Below the pieces are notes generated by a model. The model was not told the DNA's origin. It saw nothing but the letters and a program-made list of their open reading frames with translations, and searched no databases. From assembly GCA_038087875.1 (NCBI GenBank), contig CM075987.1, positions 25,112,001 through 25,176,000 of the forward strand: a stretch of DNA of 64,000 nucleotides, given 5' to 3'. Within the stretch, counting starts at the first letter, position 1. The number at the start of each line of letters is the position of its first letter. This document shows, one piece after another, positions 6,466-61,779 of this stretch. Origin of the DNA: Malacoraja senta. Taxonomy: Eukaryota. The position numbers were made by a program, and so were the translations under genes.

Positions 6466-6617
6466 GGTTTAAGAAAGAACTGCTGATGCTGGAAAAAAAT
6501 CGAAGGTAGACAAAAAATGCTGGAGAAACTCAGCGGGTGAGGCAGCATCTACGGAGAGATAGTCCTTCTCTCCATTGGTGCTGCCTCACCCGCTGAGTTT
6601 CTCCAGCATTTTTTGTC
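6466..6617 (-). mobile_element. Penelope-derived palindromic short element
   Basis: Inverted copies of the PLE 3' segment; near-duplicated flank TATCGTGGAG(G/A)G(C/T)GAAG at 6449-6465 and 6618-6634. Confidence 0.7.
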
Positions 6618-9092: not shown

Positions 9093-9297
9093 GGTAGACA
9101 AAAGTGCTGGAGAACCTCAGCGGGTGCGGCAGCATCTATGGAGCGAAGGAAATAGGCAACGTTTCGGGCCGAAACCCTTCTTCAGACCCGAAACGTTGCC
9201 TATATCCTTCGCTCCATAGATGCTGCCGCACCCGCTGAGTTTCTCCGGCACTTTTGTCTACCATCGATTTTCCAGCATCTGCAGTTCCTTCTTGAAC
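9093..9297. mobile_element. Penelope-derived palindromic element with hammerhead-type motif
   Basis: About 75-bp inverted arms; minus-strand CTGAAGAAGGGTTTCGGCCCGAAACGTT; perfect 15-bp TSD ATCAGAATAAAAGGA (9078-9092, 9298-9312). Confidence 0.85.
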
Positions 9298-15635: not shown

Positions 15636-15810
15636 GTAGGCAAAAGTGCTGGAGAAACTCAGCGGGTGCAACAGCATCTATGGAGCGAACGGTTTCGGCC
15701 CGAAACGTTGCCTATTTCCTTTGCTCCATAGATGCTGCCGCACCCGCTGAGTTTCTCCAGCACTTTTGTCTACCTTCGATTTTCCAGCATCTGCAGTTCC
15801 TTCTTAAACA
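15636..15810. mobile_element. Penelope-derived palindromic short element
   Basis: Inverted arms, PLE-type terminus CCAGCATCTGCAGTTCCTTCTTAAACA. Confidence 0.75.
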
Positions 15811-22160: not shown

Positions 22161-23999
22161 TATTCAGCGCAGGTAGACACAAAAAGCTGGAGTAACTCAG
22201 CGGGACAGGCAGCATCTCTGAAGAGAAGGAATGGGTGACGTTTTGGGTCGAGACCCTTCTTCAGACTAGTTAGGGATAAGGGAAACGAGAGATATAGACG
22301 ATGATGTAGTGTGATAGAGAGCGAAGAACGCATGATATTGCTCACCGACATATTAGTTTCATCGTTTCTCCTGAGATGTGTTGAGGGAAACAAATTTCAA
22401 ACAATTCCATCTGTTGTTCCCAACATGGGATGGTTCTCCCCTGCCCGTGGAAGTATTGCCGGTACATCACCTCAGCTGGGTATTGTCAGAATCAATAACG
22501 TTTCAGATTTATTTGTCACCAGTGATTTTTGATCCTTTCAACATTTGCAATCTGGTGCATGCTGAGCAATCAGCTTATCTGATCCGCGCAGCCCACAGCT
22601 TGCAAAAACCGAGAGATAGCCCACATTTCTCTCAGCCTGCTCATGCCAAAATAGAATCCAAACATCACTGCCTCAGCTATTTATTAATTGGCTGTACATT
22701 TTCTGACTGAACTGATCCACAACATGACCTTCTAATTGATCAAAATATCTGCTTTTTTCGGTTCCTGAGCAGCTATCTATCTCTCCCTCTCAACCCCATT
22801 CTCCTGCCTTCTCCCCGTAACCCCCGACTCCCATACTAATCAAGAATCCATCTCTCTCTGATTTAAAATATATCCACTGACTTGGCCTCCGCAGCCTTCT
22901 GTGGCAACAAATTCCACAGATTCACCACCCTCCATCTGATTGATACTAAGATACCTTAGTGTGATTGTGCCTGATCTTCCATATTAAAACACTTGATCTC
23001 GGAAGAATATAAATAAAAGATAGTGATGTTTATTTTTAAACTATTCTGAATATCCAGTGGGATATTGGGGGTCAAAATTACAAATCTTCAGAGTAAGAAA
23101 AATGTCACTTCATTTCAACTTTTTATTACCGTCTTATGGTTTTGAGATAGTTCTCATCTCCCAGGCAAGAGAAAGAGCTGTTAAGTATCCCTCCCTTGTA
23201 CCTTTCAATATGAGGAGCTAAACTCCCTTATCAACTCTTCTCATCTTTCTATCTTTCTAAATAATCTCTCCCCATGTGAAAGCCCCTAGCTCCAGGAGTC
23301 AATGCAATAATTTTTTATTGTGACACCCTCTGAGGCAGATCTTTCGCTCCTTACGACAAGAAATGTGAGAAGGCACACAATAATCTTGGCTTTCCCTCAC
23401 CAAATCCCTGTACGAATGCAGCAAGGATCGCTCACTGTGTAGCAAGGAACTGCAGATGCTGGTTTAAACCGAAGATAGACACAAGAAAGCTGGATAAACC
23501 CAGCGGGACAGGCAGCATCTCTGGAGAGAAGGAATGGGTGACGTTTCGGGATGACTGAAGAAGGGCCACGACCCGAAATGTCACCCATTCCTACTCTCCA
23601 GAGATGCTGCCTGTCCCGCTGAGTTACTTCAGCTTTTTGTTTCCACAATGGTTCATTGTTGGCTGAGGGGAAGGCGTTGAGACTCAGAGGGAAAGGGAAA
23701 CGACTTGAGAATCAGGGGAAAGGGAAACGAGAGATATAGACGGTGATATAGAGAGAATGAGAACAAAAACATATGAAAGATGAGCAAAAAAGGAACGATG
23801 ATAAAGGAAACAGGCCATTGCTGGGAGAGGGCCAGATGAAACGTCATCATGTTGAGTCTCATTGTCTGTAACTCGTTTTCACCTAGCCCCATCCCTAGTG
23901 GAAAGAACTCCTAGTGGAGGTGAGAGGCGGAAAAGTTTTCAGGAGCTGTGCAAGGCAAGTTTTTACACATAGATAGGTGGGTACTTTGCTATGTTCTAT

Positions 24000-28222: not shown

Positions 28223-31070
28223 GAAACATAGAAACATAGAAAATAGGTGCAGGAGTAGGCCATTCGGCCCTTCGAGCCTGCACCGCCATTCAATATGATC
28301 ATGGCTGATCATCCAACTCAGTATCCTGTACCTGCTTTCTCTCCATACCCCGTGATCCCTTTAGCCACAAGGGCCACATCTAACTCCCTCTTAAATATAG
28401 TCAATGAACTGGCCTCAACTACATTCTGTGGCAGAGAATTCCAGAGATTCACCACTCTCTGTGTAAAAAATGTTTTTCTCATTTCAGTCCTAAAGATTTC
28501 CCCTTTATCCTTAAACTGTGACCCCTTGTTCTGGACTTCCCCAACATCGGGAACAATCTTCCTGCATCTAGCCTGTCCAACCCCTTAAGGATTTTGTACG
28601 TTTCTATAAGATCCCCCCTCAATCTTCTAAATTCTAGCGAGTACAAGCCGAGTCTATCCAGTCTTTCTTCATATGAAAGTCCTGACATCCCAGAAATCAA
28701 ATCAACCTTTATTGTCATCTTGCAAGCAACAGTTGTACAGTGCAAAATGAAAAGAAGTTTCCCAGGGGATACCGGAGCATCGCACATGAAATTTAAAACA
28801 TTTCACACATAATAACACTAAAAGCAATCCAGTCCCTGATGGTCCTTGTCTGTCTGGTGATCCTTCTCTGTACTCCCTCTATGGCAAGAATGTCCTTCCT
28901 CAGATTAGGAGACCAAAACTGTATGCAATACTCCAGGTGTGGTCTCACCAAGACCCTGTACAACTGCAGTAGAACCTCCCTGCTCCTACACTCAAATCCT
29001 TTTGCTATGAATGCTAACACACCATTCGCTTTCTTCACTGCCTGCTGCACCTGCATGCCTGCTTTCAATGACTGGTGTACCATGACACCCAGGTCTCGTT
29101 GCATCTCCCCTTTTCCTAATCGGCCACCATTCAGGAAATAGTCTACTTTCCTGTTTTTGCCACCAAAGTGGATAACCTCACATTTATCCACATTAAACTG
29201 CATCTGCCATGCATTTTCCCACACCCAGCCTATCCAAGTCATCTTGCAGCCTCCTAGCATCCTCCTCACAGCTAACACTGCCCCCCAGCTTCGTGTCATC
29301 CGCAAACTTGGAGATGTTGCATTCAATTCCCTCGTCCAAATCATTAATATATATTGTAAATAGCTGGGGTCCCAGCACTGAGCCTTGCGGTACCCCACTA
29401 GTCACCGCCTGCCATTCTGAAAAGGACCCGTTAACTCCTACTCTTTGCTTCCTGTCTGCCAGCCAGTTCTCTATCCACATCAATACTGAACCCCCAATAC
29501 CGTGTGCTTTAAGTTTGTATACTAATCTCTTATGTGGGACCTTGTCGAATGCCTTCTGAAAGTTCAGATATAGCACATCCACTGGTTCTCCCTTATCCAC
29601 TCTACTAGTTACATCCTGGAAAAATTCTATAAGATTCGTCAGACATGATTTACCTTTCATAAATCCATTCTGACTTTGTCCAATGATTTCACCACTTTCC
29701 AAATGTGCTGCTATCCCATCTTTAATAACTGACTCTAGCAGTTTCACCACTATTGATGTTAGACTAACTGGTCTGTAATTCCCTGTTTTCTCTCTCCCTC
29801 CCTTTTTAAAAAGTGGGGTTACATTAGCTACCCTCCAATCCTCAGGAACTACTCCAGAATCTAAAGAATTTTGAAAAATTATCACAAATGCATCCACTAT
29901 TTCTGGGGCTACTTCCTTAAGTACTCTGGGATGCAGCCTATCTGGCCCTGGGGATTTATCGGCCTTTAATCCATTCAATTTACCTAACACCACTTCCCGG
30001 CTAACCTGGATTTCACTCAGTTCCTCCATCTCATTTGACCCCCGGTCCCCTGCCATTTCCGGCAGATTAATTAAGTCTTCCTTAGTGAAGACAGAACCAA
30101 AGTAATTATTCAATTGGTCTGCCATGTCCTTGTTCCCCATGATCAATTCACCTGTTTCTGACTGCAAGGGACCTACATTTGTTTTAACTAATCTTTTTCT
30201 CTTCACATATCTATAAAAATGTTTGCAGTCAGTTTTTATGTTCCCTGCCAGTTTTCTTTCATAACCTATTTTCCCTTTCCTAATTGAGCCTTTTGTCCTC
30301 CTCTGCTGGTCTCTGAATTTCTCCCAGTCCTCTGGTAGGCTGCTTTTTCTGGATAATTTGTATACTTCATCTTTTGTTTTGATACTATCCCTGATTTCCC
30401 TTGTTATCCACGGATGCACTACCTTCCCTGATTTATTCTTTTGCCAAACTGGAATGGACAATTGTTGTAGTTCATTCATGCAGCCTTTAAATGCCTTCCA
30501 TTGCATATCCACCGTCAACCCTTTAAGAATCAATTGCCAGTCTATCTTGGCCAATTCACGTCTCATACCCTCAAAGTTACCTTTCTTTAAGTTCCGAACC
30601 CTTGTTTCTGAATTAATTATGTCACTCTCCATCCTAATGAAGAACTCAACCATATTATGGTCACTCTTGCCCAAGGGGCCACGCACAACAAGACTGTTAA
30701 CTAACCCTTCCTCATTACTCAATACCCAGTCTAGAATAGCCTGCTCTCTCGTTGGTTCCTCTACATGTTGGTTTAGAAAACTATCCCACATACATTCCAA
30801 AAAATCCTCTTCCTCAGCACCCCTGCCAATTTGATTCACCCAATCTATATGTAGATTGAAGTCACCCATTATAACTGTTTTACCTTTGTTGCACGCATTT
30901 CTAATTTCCTGTTTGATGCCATCCCCAACTCCACTACTACTGTTAGGTGGCCTGTACACAACACCCACTAGCGTTTTCTGCCCCTTAGTGTTTCGCAGCT
31001 CTACTCATATTGATTCCACATCCTCCAAGCTAATATCCTTCCTTCCCATTGCGTTAATCTCCTCTCTAAC
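28223..31070 (-). mobile_element. CR1-clade (HER1-related) LINE, 5' truncated, inserted in a V-SINE
   Basis: APE-EN motifs (YRPP, GDFN, SDH) plus RT; (TTTCTATG)n tail; V-SINE halves at about 27985-28221 and 31071-31120; small insertion about 28698-28851. Confidence 0.95.
29193..30968 (-). pseudogene. CR1 ORF2 (endonuclease/reverse transcriptase), frameshifted near 29220
   Basis: 591-aa ORF with [34 protein letters not shown]; continues in the 28793-29398 frame. Confidence 0.9.
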
Positions 31071-35738: not shown

Positions 35739-38144
35739 TTTTTTTTTTTTTTGAAAATATTTTTTATTGGAGAAAAGTACACAACCTATTAACATCATTA
35801 CAGTCTTACATTTTTAAATTGATAATATTATCAATTATTATTACATTGTCTCCAATACCTTTTGCCTTTTTTTTAAATTTTTGTTTTTAAACTAGGTAGA
35901 ACTAAAAAGATAGATGAAGTAAAGAAAGAAAAGAGTGAGAAGGAAAAAGAGAAAAGAGAAAACAAAAAAACAAAAAACAAAAAAAAATTAAAAAATAAAA
36001 AATAAAAAGATGGTTAAAGAAGAATTGAAAAATTTAAAAGATAAAAAAGTTCATTCGAGATATATTCGTACATTTCAGAGTATAGCATTTCATCCATTCT
36101 TTAGCCCGAGCATTAGTCAGGTTCCTGTGCTGAACCATTCTGACCCTTTAAATAATCAATAAAGGGAGACCATGTTCCAACGAATAATTCCTGTTTGTCC
36201 AACAGGGAAAATCTGATTCTTTCCACGTTTAAGGTCTCCGTCATTTCTATAATCCACATTTTGATTGTGGGGGCCGTAGGGCCTTTCCAAAATTTTTGAA
36301 TTAATTTTTTTCCTGTTATTATACTATAATCAATAAAGTTTCTTTGTGTTGTAGTAAATGTTTGATTTAATTCTAATGTTCCGAGTATTATAAATTTTGG
36401 ATCCGGGTCCACTTGTGTGCTGGTCACTTTAGATATTATACTAAAAATATTTACCCAGAATTTTTTAATTTTTATACAGTTTGCAAACATATGAGATAAG
36501 GTAGCTTCTAAATGTTGACATTTATCACATATAGGTGAGATATGTTGAAAGATTTTATGTAATTTTGTTTTTGAATAATGTAACCTATGTATTACTTTAA
36601 ATTGTATTAAAGAATGTCTGGCATTTAGTGGACATTGATGTATGTGTTGTAAACTTTCCTCCCAAGTATCTTTCGTTATTATTTGATTTAATTCTTTTTC
36701 CCATGTTTGTCTGTGTAAGTCCGTCGATGGAATGTCACTGTCTAATAAGATTATATATATAAGATATTAATTTTTCTGTATTAGGATGTTTATTCCAACA
36801 TTCGTCAAGAATTTCTGAATTTCTAATTCGAAAATGTTGAGTATTCGATTTTACATAATCTCTGAGTTGAAGATATCTGAAATAATCATTTCCTCGAAGT
36901 CCATAAGTCTGTTGCAACTCCTGAAATGTCAGAAAAGTGCCTTCCTTATAAAGTTGTCCCATATTTTTATTTCCATAATTCTTCCATTGTGTAAAACCCC
37001 TGTCCAACCATGAAGGCTTAAACAAAGGGTTATTCACAATTGGGAGAAAAAGTGATAAATTATCTAATTTTAATGTCTTTTTTAATTGTTTCCAAATTCG
37101 TATAGCACTAAATATTATAGGGTTTTCCCTATAAATTTTTTTGTTTAATTTAGATGTAGCAAATAATATCGAACCGATATCAAAAGGCAAACAATCTTCC
37201 TTTTCCATTTTTAACCAATCTGGTTGTTGATCTATTTCTTCCAACCAGAAATTCATATTTTTAATGTTAACTGCCCAAAAATAAAACAGAAAGTTGGGTA
37301 AAACCAAACCTCCATTTATTTTTGATTTACACAAATGTCTTTTGTTTATCCTATGATTCTTATAATCCCAGATAAAATCATTAACAATGGAGTCCAATTT
37401 AAAAAAAAAGTTTTTTGACAAATATATCGGAATTGTCTGAAAAAGGTATAATATTTGCGGTAAAAAAATCATTTTTATGGCATTAATTTTGCCAACCATT
37501 GAGATAGGAAGTGTTTTCCAGTATTGAATATTCTTATGTAGTTTATTCAGTAATGGGGGAAAATTTGCTTTAAATAATGATGTATATATCTTAGTTACAT
37601 AAATACCTAGATATTTAAATTTTTCATTTACTATTTTAAATGGAAATTGTTGTATTATCTGTTTGTTATGTTCCCTTATTGGCATAATTTCACTTTTATT
37701 CCAATTTATTCTGTATCCTGAGAGTGAACCAAATTGGGTTATTAGCTCTAATAAGTTTGGAATACTAATTTCTGGTTTTGTAATGTAAATTAGTACATCA
37801 TCTGCGTATAGAGAAATTTTATTCACTGTGTCCTTTGTGATATACCCATATATTTCCGGATGACCCCTAACTCTTTCTGCAAGTGGCTCAATAGCAAGCG
37901 CAAATAATAATGGAGATAACGGGCATCCTTGTCTACAACCTCTAGATAGGCTGAATTTAGATGACAACCTTTGGTTTGTTAATATTCTAGCCGCAGGATT
38001 TGTATATAACAGTTTTATCCATGTACAGAATTTCTCCCCTAGCTGCATATTTTCCATCACCGAAAATAAATAAGACCATTCAACCTGATCAAATGCTTTT
38101 TCAGCGTCAAGTGAGATTATTGCTAGATCTTCATTAATAATTCT
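35739..38144 (-). mobile_element. L1-clade LINE, 5' truncated, poly(A) tail
   Basis: 16-bp TSD CTTTTTGTGTCTATCT (35723-35738, 38145-38160); poly-T at the left end; AT-rich ORF2. Confidence 0.92.
36113..38144 (-). pseudogene. L1 ORF2 RT plus C-terminal CCHC domain, frameshift near 36750
   Basis: LDAEKAFD, RQGCPLSP, YADD, KYLG; CDKCQHLEATLSHMFANC near 36480-36530. Confidence 0.88.
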
Positions 38145-38177
38145 CTTTTTGTGTCTATCTGAAGTGATAGGTGGTTA

Positions 38178-39804: not shown

Positions 39805-42664
39805 GGGGGGGGGGGGTAGCTCTGCTTGTGAGGGATGGAATTCAGTCCCTTGCGAGGGAAGACATAGGGACTGACGAGGTAGAGTCACTGTGGATTGAGT
39901 TGAGGAATTGTAAAGGCAAGAAGACACTATTGGTGTTATTTACAGACCCCCAAATAGTAGCCCGGATGTAGGGTGTAAGTTGCAGCAGAGTTAAAACTGG
40001 CATGTAACAAAGGTAATGCCACTGTGGTCCTATTTTCTATGTTTCTATTGGAGAGAAGGCAGGTACAGGATACTGAGTTGGATGATCAGCCATGATCATA
40101 TTGAATGGCGGTGGCAGACTCGAAGGGCCGAATGGCCTACTCCTGCACTATTTTCTATGTTTCTATGTGATGGGGGATTTCAATATGCAGGTAGACTGGG
40201 AAAATCAGGTTGGTTCAGGACCCCAAGAAAGAGAGTTTGTAGAATGCCTCCGAGATGGATCCTTAGAGCAGCTTGTAATGGAGCCAACCAGAGAAAAGGC
40301 AATTCTGGATTAGTGTTGTCCAATGAACAGATATGATAAGAGAACTCGAGGTAAAGGAACTGCTTGGAGGTAGTGATCATAATATGATTAGTTTTAACCT
40401 GCAATTTGAGAAGGAGAACGTTAAATCGGAAGTGTCAGTGATGCAGTTGAACAAAGGGGACTATGAAGGCATGAGAGGGGAGCTGGCCAAAGTAGACTGG
40501 AAAGGGATCCTAGCAGGAATGACGGTGGAACAGCAATGGCAGGAATTTCTGGCATAATCCGGGAGACGCAGGATCATTTCATTCCAAAAAGGAAGAAAGA
40601 TTCTAAGGGGAGTAGGAGGCAACCGTGGCTGACAAGAGAAGTTAGGGATAGAATAAAACTAAAAGAAAAGATGTATAACACAGCAAAGAGTAGCCGGAAG
40701 CCAGAGGATTGGGAAACTTTCATAGTACAACAGAAGGAAACAAAACGGGCAATAAGGGCTGAAAAGATGAAGTATGTGGGGAAGCTGGCCAGGAATATAA
40801 AGAAGGACAGTAAAAGCTTCTTTAGATATGTTAAGGGAAAAAGAGTAGCAAAGTCAAATGTGGGTCCCTTGAAGGCAGACACGGGTGAGATTATTATTGG
40901 CAACAAGGAAATGGCAGAAGAGTTGAATAGGTACTTCGGATCTGTCTTCACTAAGGAAGACACAAACAATCTCCCAGATGTACTGGAGGACAGAGGATCT
41001 AAGGGGGTAGAGGAACTGAAAGAAATATTCATTAGGCGAGAAATAGTATTGGGTAGGCTAATGGACTGAAGGATGATAAATCCCCTGGGCCTGATGGTCT
41101 GCATCCCAGGGTCCTCAGGGAGGTGGCTCTAGAAATAGTGGACGCATTAGTGATAATTTTCCAATGTTCAATAGATTCAGGATCAGTTCCTGTGGATTGG
41201 AGGTTAGCTAATGTTATCCCACTTTTCAAGAAAGAAGCGAGAGAGAAAACGGGGAATTACAGACCAGTTAGCCTGACTTCGGTGGTGGGAAAGATGCTGG
41301 AGTCAATTATTATAGAGGTAATAATGGGGCATTTGGATAGCAGTAAAAGGATTAGTCCAAGCCAACATGGATTTATGAAAGGGAATCATGCTGGACTAAT
41401 CTTCGGGGATTTTTTGAGGATGTGACAAGTAAATGGATGAAGGGGTGCCAGTGGATGTAGTGTATCTAGACTTTCAGAAAGCCTTTGACAAGGTCCCGCA
41501 CGGGAGACTGGTGACTAAAATTAGAGCACATGGTATTGGGGGTAGGGTGTTGACATGGATAGAAAATTGGTTGGCAGACCGGAAGCAAAGAGTAGGAGTG
41601 AATGGGTCCTTTTCAGAATGGCAGGCAGTGGCGAGTGGAGTGCAGCAAGGCTCGGTGTTGGGGCCGCAACTGTTTACCATATATATTAATGATTTGGAAG
41701 AGGAAATTAGGAGCAACACTAGCAAGTTTGCGGATGACATAAAGCTGGTGGCAGTGTGAACTGTGAAGAGGATATTAGGAGGTTGCAGGGTGACCTGGAC
41801 AGGTTGAGTGAGTGGGCAGATGCGTGGCAGATGCAGTATAATATAGATAAAGGTGAGGTTATCCACTTTGGTGGCAAAACAAAGGGCAGATTATTATCTC
41901 AATGGGGTTAGGTTAGGTAAGGGGGGTGTACAGCGAGACCTGGGTGTCCTTGTACACCGGTCACTGAAAGTTGGCGTGCAGGTACAGCATGCAGTGAAAA
42001 AAGCTAATGGAATGTTGGCCTTCATAACAAGAGGATTTCAGTATAGGAGTAAAGAGGTTTCTTCTGCAGTTGTATAGGGCTCTGTGAGACACATCTGGAG
42101 TATTGTGTACAGTTTTGGTCTCCTAATTTGAGGAAGGACATCCTTGTGATCCAGTGCAGGGTAGGCTCACGAGATTGATCCCTGGGATGGCGGGACTGTC
42201 ATATGAGGAAAGATTGAAAAGACTAGGCTTGTATTCACTGGAGTTTAGAAGGATGAGGGGGGATCTTATAGAAAGATATAAAATTATAAAAGGACTGGAC
42301 AAGCTAGATGCAGGAAAAATGTTCCCAATGTTGGGCAAGTCCAGAACCAGGGGCCACAGTCTTAGAATAAAGGGGAGGTCATTTAAGACTGAGGTGAGAA
42401 AAAACGTTTTCACCCAGAGAGTTGTGAATTTATGGAATTCCCTGCCACAGAGGGCAGTGGAGGCCAAGTCACTGGATGGATTTAAGAGAGAGTTAGATAG
42501 AGCTCTAGGGGCTAGTGGAGTCAAGGGATATGGGGAGAAGGCAGGCACGGATTATTGATAGGGGACGATCAGCCATGATCACAATGAATGGAGGTGCTGG
42601 CTCAGAGGGCCGAATGGCCTCCTCCTGCATCTATTTTCTATGTTTCTATGTTTCTATGTTTCTA
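39805..42664 (+). mobile_element. CR1-clade LINE (second subfamily), multiply frameshifted ORF2
   Basis: GGGVALLV, YRPP, MGDFN, SDHN, NYRPVSL, QGSVLGP, FADD, RTRGH, WNSLP; (TTTCTATG)n tail; nested CR1 3' fragment about 40030-40168. Confidence 0.93.
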
Positions 42665-48757: not shown

Positions 48758-49116
48758 TTAACACCAAGGCTTGTGACCAAGCAATTGAGTATCTCACAAT
48801 CAGCTCGAGAGGTTATAAACATTAGGATAAGTACCACAGCAAGAGCTCGCTACAATCACCTCTTTCTGGAGTACATTATAATTGTTGGCTCTGTTTAATC
48901 CAATTAAGGTCGACAGGTTTTTACAAATTTATTTTGGGCTTCATGTTACTGTGCAACACAGCAATGTTATAACTATTAGAATATTCACATATCCTGCCAA
49001 CTTTACCTTGCAACAAGTATAAAACTTAATGACTTTTCTTTGATGGGAATTGTTCATGACCAGACACAAGAAAGCCACATGAAATAGTTGGTCCAAGTTT
49101 AGTTTAGTTCAGAGAT

Positions 49117-49294
49117 GGGGGTCAAGGAAAGAGCGTTCACGTCGCGGCCCTGTTTCCACCAATCTTTCCACCACCACGCACAGGAAGCACAAGAAGCGCG
49201 AGACAGACACCATTGTACGCAGATGCCGAGAAGTGTGTTCAGCTCTGGCTGAATAACTTCTAATCTTGTGTGTGGACTCGATAAGAAGAAGAAG
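49117..49294 (+). mobile_element. Short non-autonomous retroelement (family B) headed by a minimal HDV/CPEB3-like ribozyme, (AAG)n tail
   Basis: Inserted in a V-SINE tail; TSD-like TTCAGAGAT/CTTAGAGAT; homologous to 61488-61657; ends CGATAAGAAGAAGAAG. Confidence 0.85.
49118..49169 (+). ncRNA. Putative minimal (P4-less) HDV/CPEB3-like ribozyme
   Basis: P1 GGGGTC/GGCCCT, P2 GGAAAGA/TCTTTCC, P3 GCG/CGC, L3 TTCACGT, linker GTTTCCA, J4/2 CCAA (C49159). Confidence 0.8.
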
Positions 49295-49440
49295 CTTAGA
49301 GATACAGCTCTAAAGTGAGCCCTTCGGCCCCTCGAGTCCATGCCGACCATCTATTACCCGTTCACAATAGTTCTATTTTATCCCACTTGCTCGTCCACTC
49401 CCGACACACTAGGGGCAATTTACAGAGGTCAAGTAACAGA

Positions 49441-49620
49441 GGGCGGCACGGTGGCGCAGCGGTAGAGTTGCTGCCTCACTGCGCCAGAGACCCGGGTTCG
49501 ATCCTGACTACGGGTGCTGCCTGTACGGAGTTTGTACCTTCTCCCCGTGACCTGCGTGCATTTCCTCTGGGTGCTCTGGTTGTCTCCCACACTGCAAAGA
49601 CGTACAGGTTGTCGTTTAAT
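49441..49620 (+). mobile_element. HE1-like V-SINE 5' part
   Basis: Head and V-domain, ending at the G-rich repeat. Confidence 0.8.
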
Positions 49621-49621
49621 T

Positions 49622-49731
49622 GAGGGGGAGAGGGGGAGAGGGGGAGAGGGGGAGAGGGGGAGAGGGGGAGAGGGGGAGAGGGGGAGAGGGGGAGAGGGGG
49701 AGAGGGGGAGAGGGGGAGAGGGGGAGAGGGG
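49622..49731 (+). repeat. (GGGGGAGA)n polypurine tandem repeat
   Basis: About 13 perfect 8-bp units. Confidence 0.95.
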
Positions 49732-61154: not shown

Positions 61155-61289
61155 CAGTCTGAAGAAGGGTTTCGGCCCGAAACGTTGCCTATTTCCTTCG
61201 CTCCATAGATGCTGCTGCACCCGCTGAGTTTCTTCAGCATTTTTGTGTACCTTCGAATTTCCAGCATCTGCAGTTCCTTCTTAAATACA
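61155..61289 (+). mobile_element. Penelope-derived short element with hammerhead-type motif
   Basis: CTGAAGA-A-GGGT-TTCG-GCCC-GAAA-CGTT at 61159-61186 and PLE-type terminus. Confidence 0.8.
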
Positions 61290-61487
61290 TTGTTACCAAC
61301 AGGTCCATGGGAAGATGTTGCTCTAGATTTTCCACCTCCATCAGGAAAATCAATACTAGTTGTGATCGATTACTACAGCAGATATTGTGAGTATGCAATA
61401 GTGAAGACTACAACATCGGAAAAGACCGTAGTGGCTTTGATGGAAATATACGCAAGACAGTGTGACAATGGGCCTCAGTTCATTCCT
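61290..61487 (+). pseudogene. Degenerate Gypsy integrase core fragment
   Basis: LPTGPWEDVALDF..ILVVIDYYSRY..DNGPQF. Confidence 0.8.
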
Positions 61488-61657
61488 GGGGTCAAGGAAA
61501 GAGCGTTCACGTCACGGCCCTGTTTCCAACAATCTTTCCACCACCACGCACAAGAAGCGCAAGAAGCGTAAGAAACACCATTGGATGCAGATGCCGAGAA
61601 GTGTGTTCAGCTTTGACTGAACAGCTTCTAATCTTGTGTGTGGACTCGATAAGAAGA
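61488..61657 (+). mobile_element. Family B ribozyme-headed retroelement, second copy (ribozyme mutated)
   Basis: TSD AGTTCATTCCT (61477-61487, 61658-61668); starts exactly at GGGGTC; (AAG)n tail. Confidence 0.88.
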
Positions 61658-61779
61658 AGTTCATTCCTTAGAAGTTGGCTGACTACATGAAGAACAGCGG
61701 TGCGTACCATCACAAAGTGGCTTAAAAATGTTTCAATCAATTGCCCTCTCACTCTTCTGAACTGCGGCAGGGTCAAACC

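What the first reader, a model, noticed from the sequence alone, without database searches (positions are those of the whole stretch)
61488..61657. Second family B copy: 5' junction exactly at the predicted cleavage site, ribozyme since inactivated
Seen: the 11-bp TSD AGTTCATTCCT abuts the first G of P1 (61488), inside an old Gypsy integrase. Relative to the 49117 copy, P3' is CAC instead of CGC and J4/2 is ACAA instead of CCAA (catalytic-position C to A at 61529). Inference: the precise junction fits self-cleavage defining the retrotransposed 5' end. This copy is a natural negative control, and loss of activity might be favoured if it lies in a host intron in the sense orientation.
Basis: partly seen in the sequence, partly recalled or inferred. 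Interest (0 to 1): 0.72.

Follow-up and report, generated by a model that had tools for sequence, protein, structure and literature searches.

The report
Decayed copy of ribozyme-headed retroposon
This 170-base stretch is a worn-out copy of a small jumping element that starts with a self-cutting RNA motif very like the mammalian CPEB3 ribozyme; its two damaging changes look like ordinary decay, but the element family itself is worth attention.

Summary
Window 61488-61657 is a 170-bp insertion flanked by the perfect 11-bp repeat AGTTCATTCCT, and its first base is the first G of an HDV/CPEB3-type fold. Compared with the 49118 copy it has G>A at 61514 (middle pair of P3) and C>A at 61529, the position that Rfam's CPEB3 model aligns to the catalytic C.

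It belongs to a roughly 173-bp non-coding retroposon family with 1380 first-look candidates in this 1.94-Gb genome. The family has target-site duplications and an (AAG)n tail. Its 5' ends are uniform: 50 of 53 sampled copies reach the G run, and 41 of 53 have a duplication ending exactly at base -1.

The head lacks P4. It belongs to a wider set of ribozyme heads in this genome, including a 3.1-kb APE+RT LINE, that score up to 64 bits on RF00622 (cut-off 35) and covary in P1, P2 and P4.

Self-cleavage defining the 5' end is the best reading but is untested, and one RNA-seq lay showed no pile-up of ends at G1. Selection for inactivation is not supported. The copy is 6.5% diverged, with 2 of 52 changes in the head against 9 of 118 in the body. 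One change is CpG decay, and head and body decay at equal rates across the family.

The parts
61477..61487 (+). Left target-site duplication AGTTCATTCCT; last base T is the -1 nucleotide
   Evidence: Read. Identical to 61658-61668. Family-wide TSD test.
61488..61539 (+). Ribozyme-like head of copy B2. P1 5' 61488-93; J1/2 61494-95; P2 5' 61496-502; P3 5' 61503-05; L3 61506-12; P3 3' 61513-15 (A at 61514 gives a C.A mismatch); P1 3' 61516-21 (G61488.T61521 wobble); J1/4 61522-23; linker 61524-28 in place of P4; J4/2 61529-32 (ACAA, family CCAA); P2 3' 61533-39
   Evidence: RF00622, 21.6 bits. Helix assignment from alignment A2 and pair counts. Broken pair 17-27 and J4/2 ACAA.
61540..61657 (+). 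Non-coding body and tail of copy B2. It holds a variable CACAAGAAG-type stretch, a conserved hairpin at 61605-61622 (one pair lost here) and the tail GATAAGAAGA(AG) from 61648
   Evidence: Tail shared by the family.
61658..61668 (+). Right target-site duplication AGTTCATTCCT (the first AG may be tail)
61269..61487 (+). Integrase-core-like ORF fragment interrupted by the insertion; it resumes after 61668 with a stop codon
   Evidence: Pfam rve 18.6 bits, below cut-off
49118..49293 (+). Reference copy B1 of the same family (head 49118-49169, all helices and CCAA intact), preceded by one extra G at 49117; short imperfect TSD AGAGAT
   Evidence: (RF00622, 31.9 bits)

Best explanation
Window 61488-61657 is a dead copy, about 6.5% diverged, of a roughly 173-bp non-coding, non-autonomous non-LTR retroposon ('family B').

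Shown:
- The family is high-copy.
- It begins at the first G of a 52-nt head that is a P4-less relative of the CPEB3/HDV-like ribozyme.
- The same type of head sits at the very 5' end of a 3.1-kb LINE with one 934-aa APE+RT ORF, an (AAG)n tail and an 11-bp TSD. It also heads several 100-120-bp mini-elements.
- The helices covary between these families.

Inferred:
- Master copies have no need of a promoter of their own. They are transcribed as part of longer RNAs.
- The head folds into the double pseudoknot and cuts just 5' of G1. This leaves an RNA whose 5' end is the element's first base.
- The LINE's protein copies this RNA into a new site by target-primed reverse transcription, priming on the AAG tail.

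After insertion this copy decayed neutrally. A CpG transition broke the middle pair of the 3-bp P3 (61514). A transversion replaced the C at the first J4/2 position (61529). By analogy with HDV, CPEB3 and theta ribozymes, that change alone should abolish cleavage.
For: Family and ends:
- 1380 first-look candidates; all 40 scored are 95-100% identical.
- the query was the 3' 80 nt only, and 26 of 29 loci other than B1 reach element position 1-2.
- of 53 non-duplicate copies, 50 reach the G run, 38 have exactly four Gs, 41 have a TSD of 7 nt or more ending at -1 and 39 have one of 9 nt or more. The control gives 8 of 1044.
- in contigs of runs X18 and X20, homology breaks at 49118 in 250 and 316 contigs. 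In X20 the next places have 38 (49119) and 29 (49120).

Ribozyme identity:
- RF00622 is the only ribozyme family hit.
- A 19-nt run (P3-L3-P3-P1) is identical to the model consensus.
- 39 of 60 scored genome matches are over the 35-bit cut-off, up to 64.2 bits. Older family-B copies score 35-43.7.
- 88.4% of cells are paired, against 35-48% when slid. 13 of 24 pairs change on both sides, and 0 of 500 shuffles reach the covariation score.

LINE partner type.

Neutral decay.

Literature:
- Minimal HDV-like ribozymes lack P4 and are active. The catalytic C is the first J4/2 position, and C>U kills activity (PMC10879173, passages).
- C57 of CPEB3 has no active mutants (PMC9901934, passages).
- HDV-like ribozymes head RTE, baggins, R2 and L1Tc elements and non-autonomous derivatives (PMC6765202 passages; PMC3414825 abstract).
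Against: - No cleavage assay exists for any copy.
- In the one raw RNA run laid (X24, poly(A), another organism of the same study as a DNA holder; about 6% of the run read), 195 reads fell on the family. No place passed the tool's test for many molecule starts, and 50 reads ran across the 5' junction into varied flanks. Strand could not be separated, and most transcribed copies may be antisense or dead.
- The B head lacks P4 and has a 6-bp P1. I recall 7 bp as usual; this was not checked.
- The young subfamily scores 31.9 bits, under Rfam's cut-off.
- Its linker and J4/2 lie in a 9-nt direct repeat (TTTCCACCA, element positions 36-44 and 48-56). The C may therefore not descend from the ancestral catalytic C.
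- B shares only the head (83% over 36 nt) and 16 nt of tail with the LINE examined. The true partner is not identified.
Confidence: 0.7

Rival explanations
1. The uniform 5' end is a transcription start, not a cut. Family B would carry an internal promoter (Pol III-like, or Pol II as in Pr77 of L1Tc), and its head would be a ribozyme relic that lost P4 and its original J4/2 and no longer cleaves. The two changes in this copy would then have no functional meaning.
For: - The head is rearranged: no P4, 6-bp P1, a 9-nt duplication over J4/2.
- It scores below the RF00622 cut-off.
- No pile-up of RNA ends at G1, and 50 junction-crossing reads.
- L1Tc shows that one 77-nt head can be both promoter and ribozyme (PMC3383444, abstract).
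Against: - No tRNA, 7SL, 5S or other Pol III-type RNA family hit at E up to 10 in either copy.
- The start coincides to the base with the cleavage site of the P4-bearing relatives, including a 3.1-kb LINE.
- The older GGCCCCT and younger GGCCCT subfamilies differ by one C. In the younger form the first pair of P1 is again a G.U wobble, which suggests the fold stayed under selection in master copies.
- C42 is substituted in 0 of 51 other copies.
Confidence: 0.2
2. One reading: the ribozyme of this copy was inactivated because selection favoured loss of cleavage in a sense-oriented host intron.
For: Both changes hit positions expected to matter most. C>A at element position 42 is unique among the 53 sampled copies.
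Against: - 2 of 52 head substitutions against 9 of 118 in the body (p 0.51).
- 61514 is a CpG hot spot, changed the same way in 6 of 51 copies.
- Across the unbiased sample the head (5.3%) and the adjacent body (5.0%) decay alike.
- 25 of 51 copies still keep every helix and motif, so there is no general purge.
- No host exon was seen near the copy. All Pfam hits among 109 ORFs of 100 aa or more in the window are RT or endonuclease. The copy sits in nested repeat debris.
Confidence: 0.05
3. The ribozyme likeness is a chance fit on an ordinary repeat.
For: Taken alone this copy is not significant (E 0.35 on the window). The nested MFE folds are no better than shuffles.
Against: - The family relatives score up to 64 bits on a curated model. 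0 of 14 control genomes pass the cut-off.
- Helices covary.
- The motif always sits at the exact element start.
Confidence: 0.03

Closest known systems
HDV-like ribozymes at the 5' ends of non-LTR retrotransposons (R2, RTE, baggins, L1Tc)
   Same: The ribozyme is the first sequence of the element. The cut falls 5' of G1, so the whole ribozyme stays on the mobile RNA. The element has no need of a promoter of its own. Copies have constant downstream and varied upstream sequence (PMC6765202 passages; here).
   Different: The core here is a sequence-level match to the CPEB3 model, not to insect drz or HDV models. The LINE's clade (RTE-like by size and single APE+RT ORF) was not tested by phylogeny. 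Ruminski et al. 2011 was not held, so details of known RTE ribozymes were not compared.
Non-autonomous ribozyme-headed derivatives: R2 SIDEs and NARTc
   Same: A short non-coding element made of a 5' HDV-like ribozyme plus a 3' end that the LINE machinery uses, spread in trans (PMC3414825 abstract; PMC3383444 abstract).
   Different: SIDEs are rare and site-specific in rDNA, and are plain internal deletions of R2. Family B is dispersed and high-copy (1380 candidates). It is not an internal deletion of the LINE examined: only 36 nt of head and 16 nt of tail match.
Mammalian CPEB3 intron ribozyme (Rfam RF00622)
   Same: Same P3, L3, J1/4 and J4/2 letters. The 19-nt core run is identical to the model consensus. 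Related heads in this genome score 35-64 bits.
   Different: [quoted passage not shown] Here it is a multi-copy retroposon head. Family B lacks P4 and has a 6-bp P1.
Minimal (P4-less) HDV-like ribozymes: drz-Mtgn and theta ribozymes of gut phages
   Same: P4 is replaced by a short linker, with the catalytic C at the first J4/2 position directly before the P2 3' strand (PMC10879173 passages).
   Different: Those are in bacteriophages, next to tRNA genes. This one heads a eukaryotic retroposon and is derived from a P4-bearing CPEB3-type lineage. Its activity is unknown.

Membership tests
HDV-like self-cleaving ribozyme (structural class) | Nested double pseudoknot with P1, P2 and P3 (P4 optional) | tested here: met
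   on 21 heads of five families: 88.4% of cells paired against 35-48% slid, and 13 of 24 pairs with changes on both sides. In this copy P1 (6 bp) and P2 (7 bp) are intact, and P3 has one C.A mismatch.
HDV-like self-cleaving ribozyme (structural class) | Cleavage site directly 5' of G1, with G1.U closing P1 | tested here: met
   G61488 pairs with T61521. The element and TSD boundary lies exactly 5' of G61488. This concerns position only; cleavage itself was not observed.
HDV-like self-cleaving ribozyme (structural class) | Catalytic cytosine at the first position of J4/2 | tested here: not met
   This copy has A at 61529. The 49118 copy and 49 of 51 other sampled copies have C; the other two have a deletion there.
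HDV-like self-cleaving ribozyme (structural class) | P1.1 between L3 and J1/4 | tested here: inconclusive
   L3 (TTCACGT) and J1/4 (GT) are the same letters as in the CPEB3 model. They do not vary, so there is no covariation to count.
HDV-like self-cleaving ribozyme (structural class) | Self-scission giving 5'-OH and 2',3'-cyclic phosphate | not testable with these tools
   The only RNA lay showed no pile-up of ends at G1. It was a poly(A) library from another organism.
Rfam RF00622 CPEB3_ribozyme | Score at or above the gathering cut-off of 35 bits | tested here: not met
   This copy scores 21.6 bits and the 49118 copy 31.9 bits. Older family-B copies score 35-43.7, and P4-bearing relatives 38-64 bits.
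Non-autonomous non-LTR retroposon (SINE/SIDE-like) | Dispersed copies with target-site duplications, a 3' simple-repeat tail and no ORF | tested here: met
Non-autonomous non-LTR retroposon (SINE/SIDE-like) | 3' end shared with a partner LINE | tested here: inconclusive
   Only 16 nt of tail (87.5%) match the one LINE family examined. That LINE has the same (AAG)n tail and an 11-bp TSD.
Classical Pol III SINE | Head derived from tRNA, 7SL or 5S RNA with A and B boxes | tested here: not met
   No such Rfam family at E up to 10 on either copy.
Ty3/Gypsy integrase (the interrupted flank) | rve integrase core; Gypsy-clade affiliation | tested here: inconclusive
   Pfam rve 18.6 bits, under the 32.6 cut-off, on a 73-aa fragment. 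The clade was not tested.

The most novel reading that the evidence does not exclude
This genome keeps alive the retroposon lineage from which the mammalian CPEB3 intron ribozyme was once captured. The lineage consists of an RTE-like LINE with an uninterrupted ORF and several SINE-like families, all carrying heads that pass Rfam's CPEB3 cut-off. Family B would show that this lineage can shed P4, shorten P1 to 6 bp and still make more than a thousand precise-ended copies. It would then be the first minimal HDV-like ribozyme working in a eukaryotic mobile element.
Probability: 0.35. Interest if true: 0.8.

Novelty: new variant of a known kind. Interest (0 to 1): 0.58.

Why it matters
The single copy is ordinary: a decayed repeat that can serve as a natural inactive control.

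The family matters for two reasons.
- The origin of the CPEB3 ribozyme is open. A 2021 study states that it has not been found outside mammals and therefore has no outgroup (PMC8233481). Retroposon heads that pass the CPEB3 model's cut-off would supply outgroups and a concrete origin hypothesis, namely capture of a LINE or SINE head in an intron.
- P4-less HDV-like ribozymes are so far tied to phages. A eukaryotic, retroposon-borne one with hundreds of near-identical natural variants would be a ready-made mutational series. In the sample, 25 of 51 copies are intact and the rest carry single defined defects.

Tried and rejected
I used searches and stretches instead.
- Rfam at gathering threshold on the window: no match. 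Matches appear only under the cut-off.
- The look-up of sequencing runs: no RNA holder listed. Best shares were 0.38 and 0.31. One raw RNA run was offered as belonging to the same study as a holder, and I laid it.
- The lay was made on the 49118 copy, not on this one. Transcription of this locus and its strand are therefore unknown.
- Nested MFE folds of both heads are no better than shuffles. They cannot model the pseudoknot, so they are uninformative.
- BLAST of the LINE against the window: no nucleotide match, and only a distant RT similarity at 29.3-29.7 kb. No P4-bearing head lies in the window.
- Looking for host exons: Pfam on 109 ORFs of 100 aa or more gave only RT and endonuclease hits. 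Exons are usually shorter, so intron status stays unknown.
- Earlier notes of this scan: nothing for this genome or sequence. A word search gave only unrelated ribozyme notes.
- Literature:
  - 'HDV-like' + ribozyme + shark gave 2 papers, neither relevant.
  - 'drz-Pmar' gave no paper.
  - Ruminski 2011 and Webb & Luptak 2011 are not held.
  - No paper found describes CPEB3-type ribozymes in retroposons of non-mammals. Supplements were not read.
- Identity of the partner LINE for family B: not found. Top-scoring hits of every DNA query are family-B copies.

Full report
**What is at the coordinates.** Reading the window shows AGTTCATTCCT at 61477-61487 and again at 61658-61668. These repeats bracket 170 bases that begin GGGGTCAAGG and end GATAAGAAGA. 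The first two bases of the repeat (AG) could equally be the last unit of the AAG tail, so the duplication is 9-11 bp. The 5' boundary, T|GGGG, is unambiguous.

Aligned with the copy at 49118, the first 52 bases differ at two places. One is 61514, G>A (GTCGCGG becomes GTCACGG). The other is 61529, C>A (CCACCAA becomes CCAACAA).

The flank is an integrase-core-like ORF fragment. Pfam rve scores 18.6 bits, under the cut-off, and the frame resumes after the right repeat with a stop. 'Gypsy' was not tested.

**Is the head a ribozyme motif?** At Rfam's gathering threshold the window has no match. With permissive thresholds, the only ribozyme family found on either copy is RF00622, the mammalian CPEB3 ribozyme. 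The scores are 31.9 bits for 49106-49169 and 21.6 bits for 61477-61539, against a cut-off of 35. On the whole window the E-values are 1.4e-4 and 0.35.

The model alignment puts its P1, P3, L3 and J1/4 on the element, with a 19-base run identical to the consensus. It skips P4, and it aligns the C of its 'CGAA' J4/2 with the first C of CCAA. In this copy that C is the A at 61529.

The resulting map for this copy is:
- P1: 61488-93 with 61516-21 (6 bp, G.U at the cut site)
- P2: 61496-502 with 61533-39
- P3: 61503-05 with 61513-15 (now C.A in the middle)
- L3: 61506-12
- J1/4: 61522-23
- A five-base linker instead of P4
- J4/2: 61529-32

**The family.** The genome holding the window (1.94 Gb, unnamed) gave 1380 first-look candidates for the 174-base query. 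All 40 scored were 95-100% identical.

That sample favours full-length copies, so I repeated the search with only the 3' 80 bases. Of the 29 loci other than the query's own, 26 reach element position 1-2. The exceptions are L044 (starts at 19), L038 (interrupted, starts at 32) and L040 (GAGA in place of GGGG).

Pooling both samples and removing duplicates leaves 53 copies:
- 50 reach the G run.
- 38 have exactly four Gs and four have five.
- Four (two of them paralogous duplicates) have 10-15 Gs.
- 41 have a direct repeat of 7 nt or more whose upstream copy ends exactly at the base before the G run. 39 have one of 9 nt or more, against 8 of 1044 in shuffled flank pairings.

Contigs of two other public runs show the same edge. 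Homology to the laid stretch breaks at 49118 in 250 (X18) and 316 (X20) contigs. The next most frequent places in X20 have 38 (49119) and 29 (49120) (346 further rows were not shown). The refutation condition 'heterogeneous 5' ends' is therefore not met.

**Relatives with a full ribozyme.** Searching the genome with RF00622 gave 60 scored matches, 39 of them over the cut-off and the best at 64.2 bits. None of 14 control genomes passed the cut-off. The matches fall into at least five repeat families.

One family ('A1') is a 3.14-kb LINE:
- Homology between its copies starts at G1.
- It has a roughly 100-nt 5' UTR.
- It has a single 934-aa ORF, uninterrupted in L091, with APE endonuclease and RT domains.
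- Its 3' end is ...GACACGAAAAGAAGAAG, followed by an 11-bp TSD.

By size and single-ORF layout it looks RTE-like. That assignment rests on general knowledge, not on a tree.

Three other families (A2-A4) are 100-120-bp elements made of a ribozyme plus 25-40 nt.

An alignment of 21 heads from the five families was counted against the HDV-type structure that I wrote from it:
- 88.4% of cells are paired, against 35-48% with partners slid.
- 13 of 24 pairs change on both sides.
- 0 of 500 shuffles reach the covariation score.
- P2 and P4 carry most of the compensation.

The head is therefore a real, conserved RNA module that always sits at the element's first base.

**Family B's peculiarities.**
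- Family B lacks P4.
- Its linker and J4/2 lie inside a 9-nt direct repeat (TTTCCACCA at element positions 36-44 and 48-56). The region was therefore rebuilt, and the present C may not be the ancestral catalytic C.
- An older subfamily has GGCCCCT after P3 (L081, L083, L088-L090; these score 35-43.7 bits), while the abundant young one has GGCCCT. With four 5' Gs, losing that C makes the first pair a G.U wobble again. I read this as a sign that master copies stayed under selection for the fold. This is an inference.
- P4-less HDV-like ribozymes are active in phages. The catalytic C is defined as the first J4/2 base, and its replacement inactivates them (PMC10879173, passages). C57 of CPEB3 has no active mutants (PMC9901934, passages).

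**Does it cut in vivo?** This is unknown. One raw poly(A) RNA-seq run (X24, about 6% read) gave 195 reads on the family. No place passed the tool's criterion for many molecule starts, and 50 reads crossed the 5' junction into varied flanks.

This is evidence against efficient cleavage of the bulk of transcribed copies, but it is weak:
- Strand could not be separated at the junction.
- Both orientations are covered about equally.
- A few loci dominate the reads.
- The organism differs from the window's.

**Why this copy is broken.**
- Against the family majority it has 2 substitutions in 52 head positions and 9 in 118 body positions (Fisher p 0.51), plus a small indel.
- It is 6.5% diverged. 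That is at the old end of the unbiased sample (median 4.2%, range 1.7-7.2%).
- 61514 lies in CGCG. The same G>A occurs in 6 of 51 other copies, and the neighbouring C>T in 6 of 51.
- The C>A at position 42 is unique: substituted in 0 of 51, deleted in 2.
- Across the sample chosen by its 3' end, substitution rates are 62/1174 in the head and 43/860 in positions 53-93.
- 25 of 51 copies keep every helix, L3, J1/4 and the C-N-A-A junction.

Nothing calls for selection, and neutral decay suffices. Whether the copy lies in an intron cannot be told. Among 109 ORFs of 100 aa or more in the window, only RT and endonuclease domains were found.

**Comparison with what is known.** HDV-like ribozymes heading R2, RTE, baggins and L1Tc elements, and non-autonomous derivatives (R2 SIDEs, NARTc), are established (PMC6765202 passages; PMC3414825 abstract; PMC3383444 abstract). 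The mechanism proposed here is theirs.

Three things seem new:
- A core that matches the CPEB3 family at sequence level in a multi-copy retroposon setting. [quoted passage not shown] A review notes only structure-based relatives elsewhere (PMC8256844 passage).
- A P4-less form in a eukaryotic mobile element.
- Very small ribozyme-plus-tail elements.

My searches found no report of these. Two key papers were not held.

My impression that its repeats are those of a non-mammalian vertebrate is recall only.

**Verdict.** The cleavage-defined 5' end is well supported at family level but not demonstrated. Inactivation of this copy is a sound prediction. Selection for inactivation is not supported. 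The copy is ordinary, and the family is a new variant of a known kind with a bearing on the origin of the CPEB3 ribozyme.

Noticed in passing
L061-L080, L082, L084-L086 (heads at locus positions about 1501-1589); L091 99-3241: At least four further repeat families in the same genome start with a P4-bearing CPEB3-type ribozyme scoring 38-64 bits on RF00622. One is a 3.14-kb LINE with an uninterrupted 934-aa APE+RT ORF. Three are 100-120-bp elements made of little more than the ribozyme and a short tail.
   Followed up: partly
window 49153-49161 and 49165-49173; 61523-61531 and 61535-61543: A 9-nt direct repeat TTTCCACCA spans the linker plus J4/2 and the P2 3' strand plus following bases. P4 seems to have been replaced through a duplication. 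The P2 5' strand could also pair with the proximal copy, which is the fold the nested MFE picks.
   Followed up: partly
L014, L015, L039, L042 (5' junctions); window 49117: A few copies carry extra Gs between the TSD and the element: 10-15 Gs in four loci, and one extra G in four including the 49118 copy. These could be untemplated addition at the end of reverse transcription, or later slippage.
   Followed up: no
base -1 of family-B copies (L002-L060; window 61487): The base before the G run is T in 34 of 50 copies, against 30% T in the flanks. It lies inside the TSD, so it reflects target choice rather than element sequence.
   Followed up: partly
window 49237-49254 and 61605-61622: There is a conserved 7-bp hairpin (GTTCAGC / GCTGAAC in most copies) in the 3' half of family B. 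It is a candidate recognition element for the reverse transcriptase. Both window copies have a change in it.
   Followed up: no
window 49060-49155: Contigs of two coded runs from different organism labels span the 5' junction of the 49118 copy with its own flank: 0 and 4 differing letters (records 9 and 17). That insertion is therefore shared between them.
   Followed up: no
window 9095-9260, 23494-23628, 6518-6608, 15652-15757: Long palindromic repeats give sub-threshold hits to plant or animal miRNA models on both strands. They are probably hairpin-forming MITE-like repeats.
   Followed up: no
window 29196-31004 (-), 36738-38174 (-), 41433-41756 (+): Other LINE remnants with RT, and in one case endonuclease, domains. 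They are unrelated at nucleotide level to the ribozyme-headed LINE.
   Followed up: partly
window 49440-49610 and 49620-49730: A tRNA-like SINE head lies directly downstream of the 49118 copy, followed by a (GGGGGAGA)n microsatellite.
   Followed up: no
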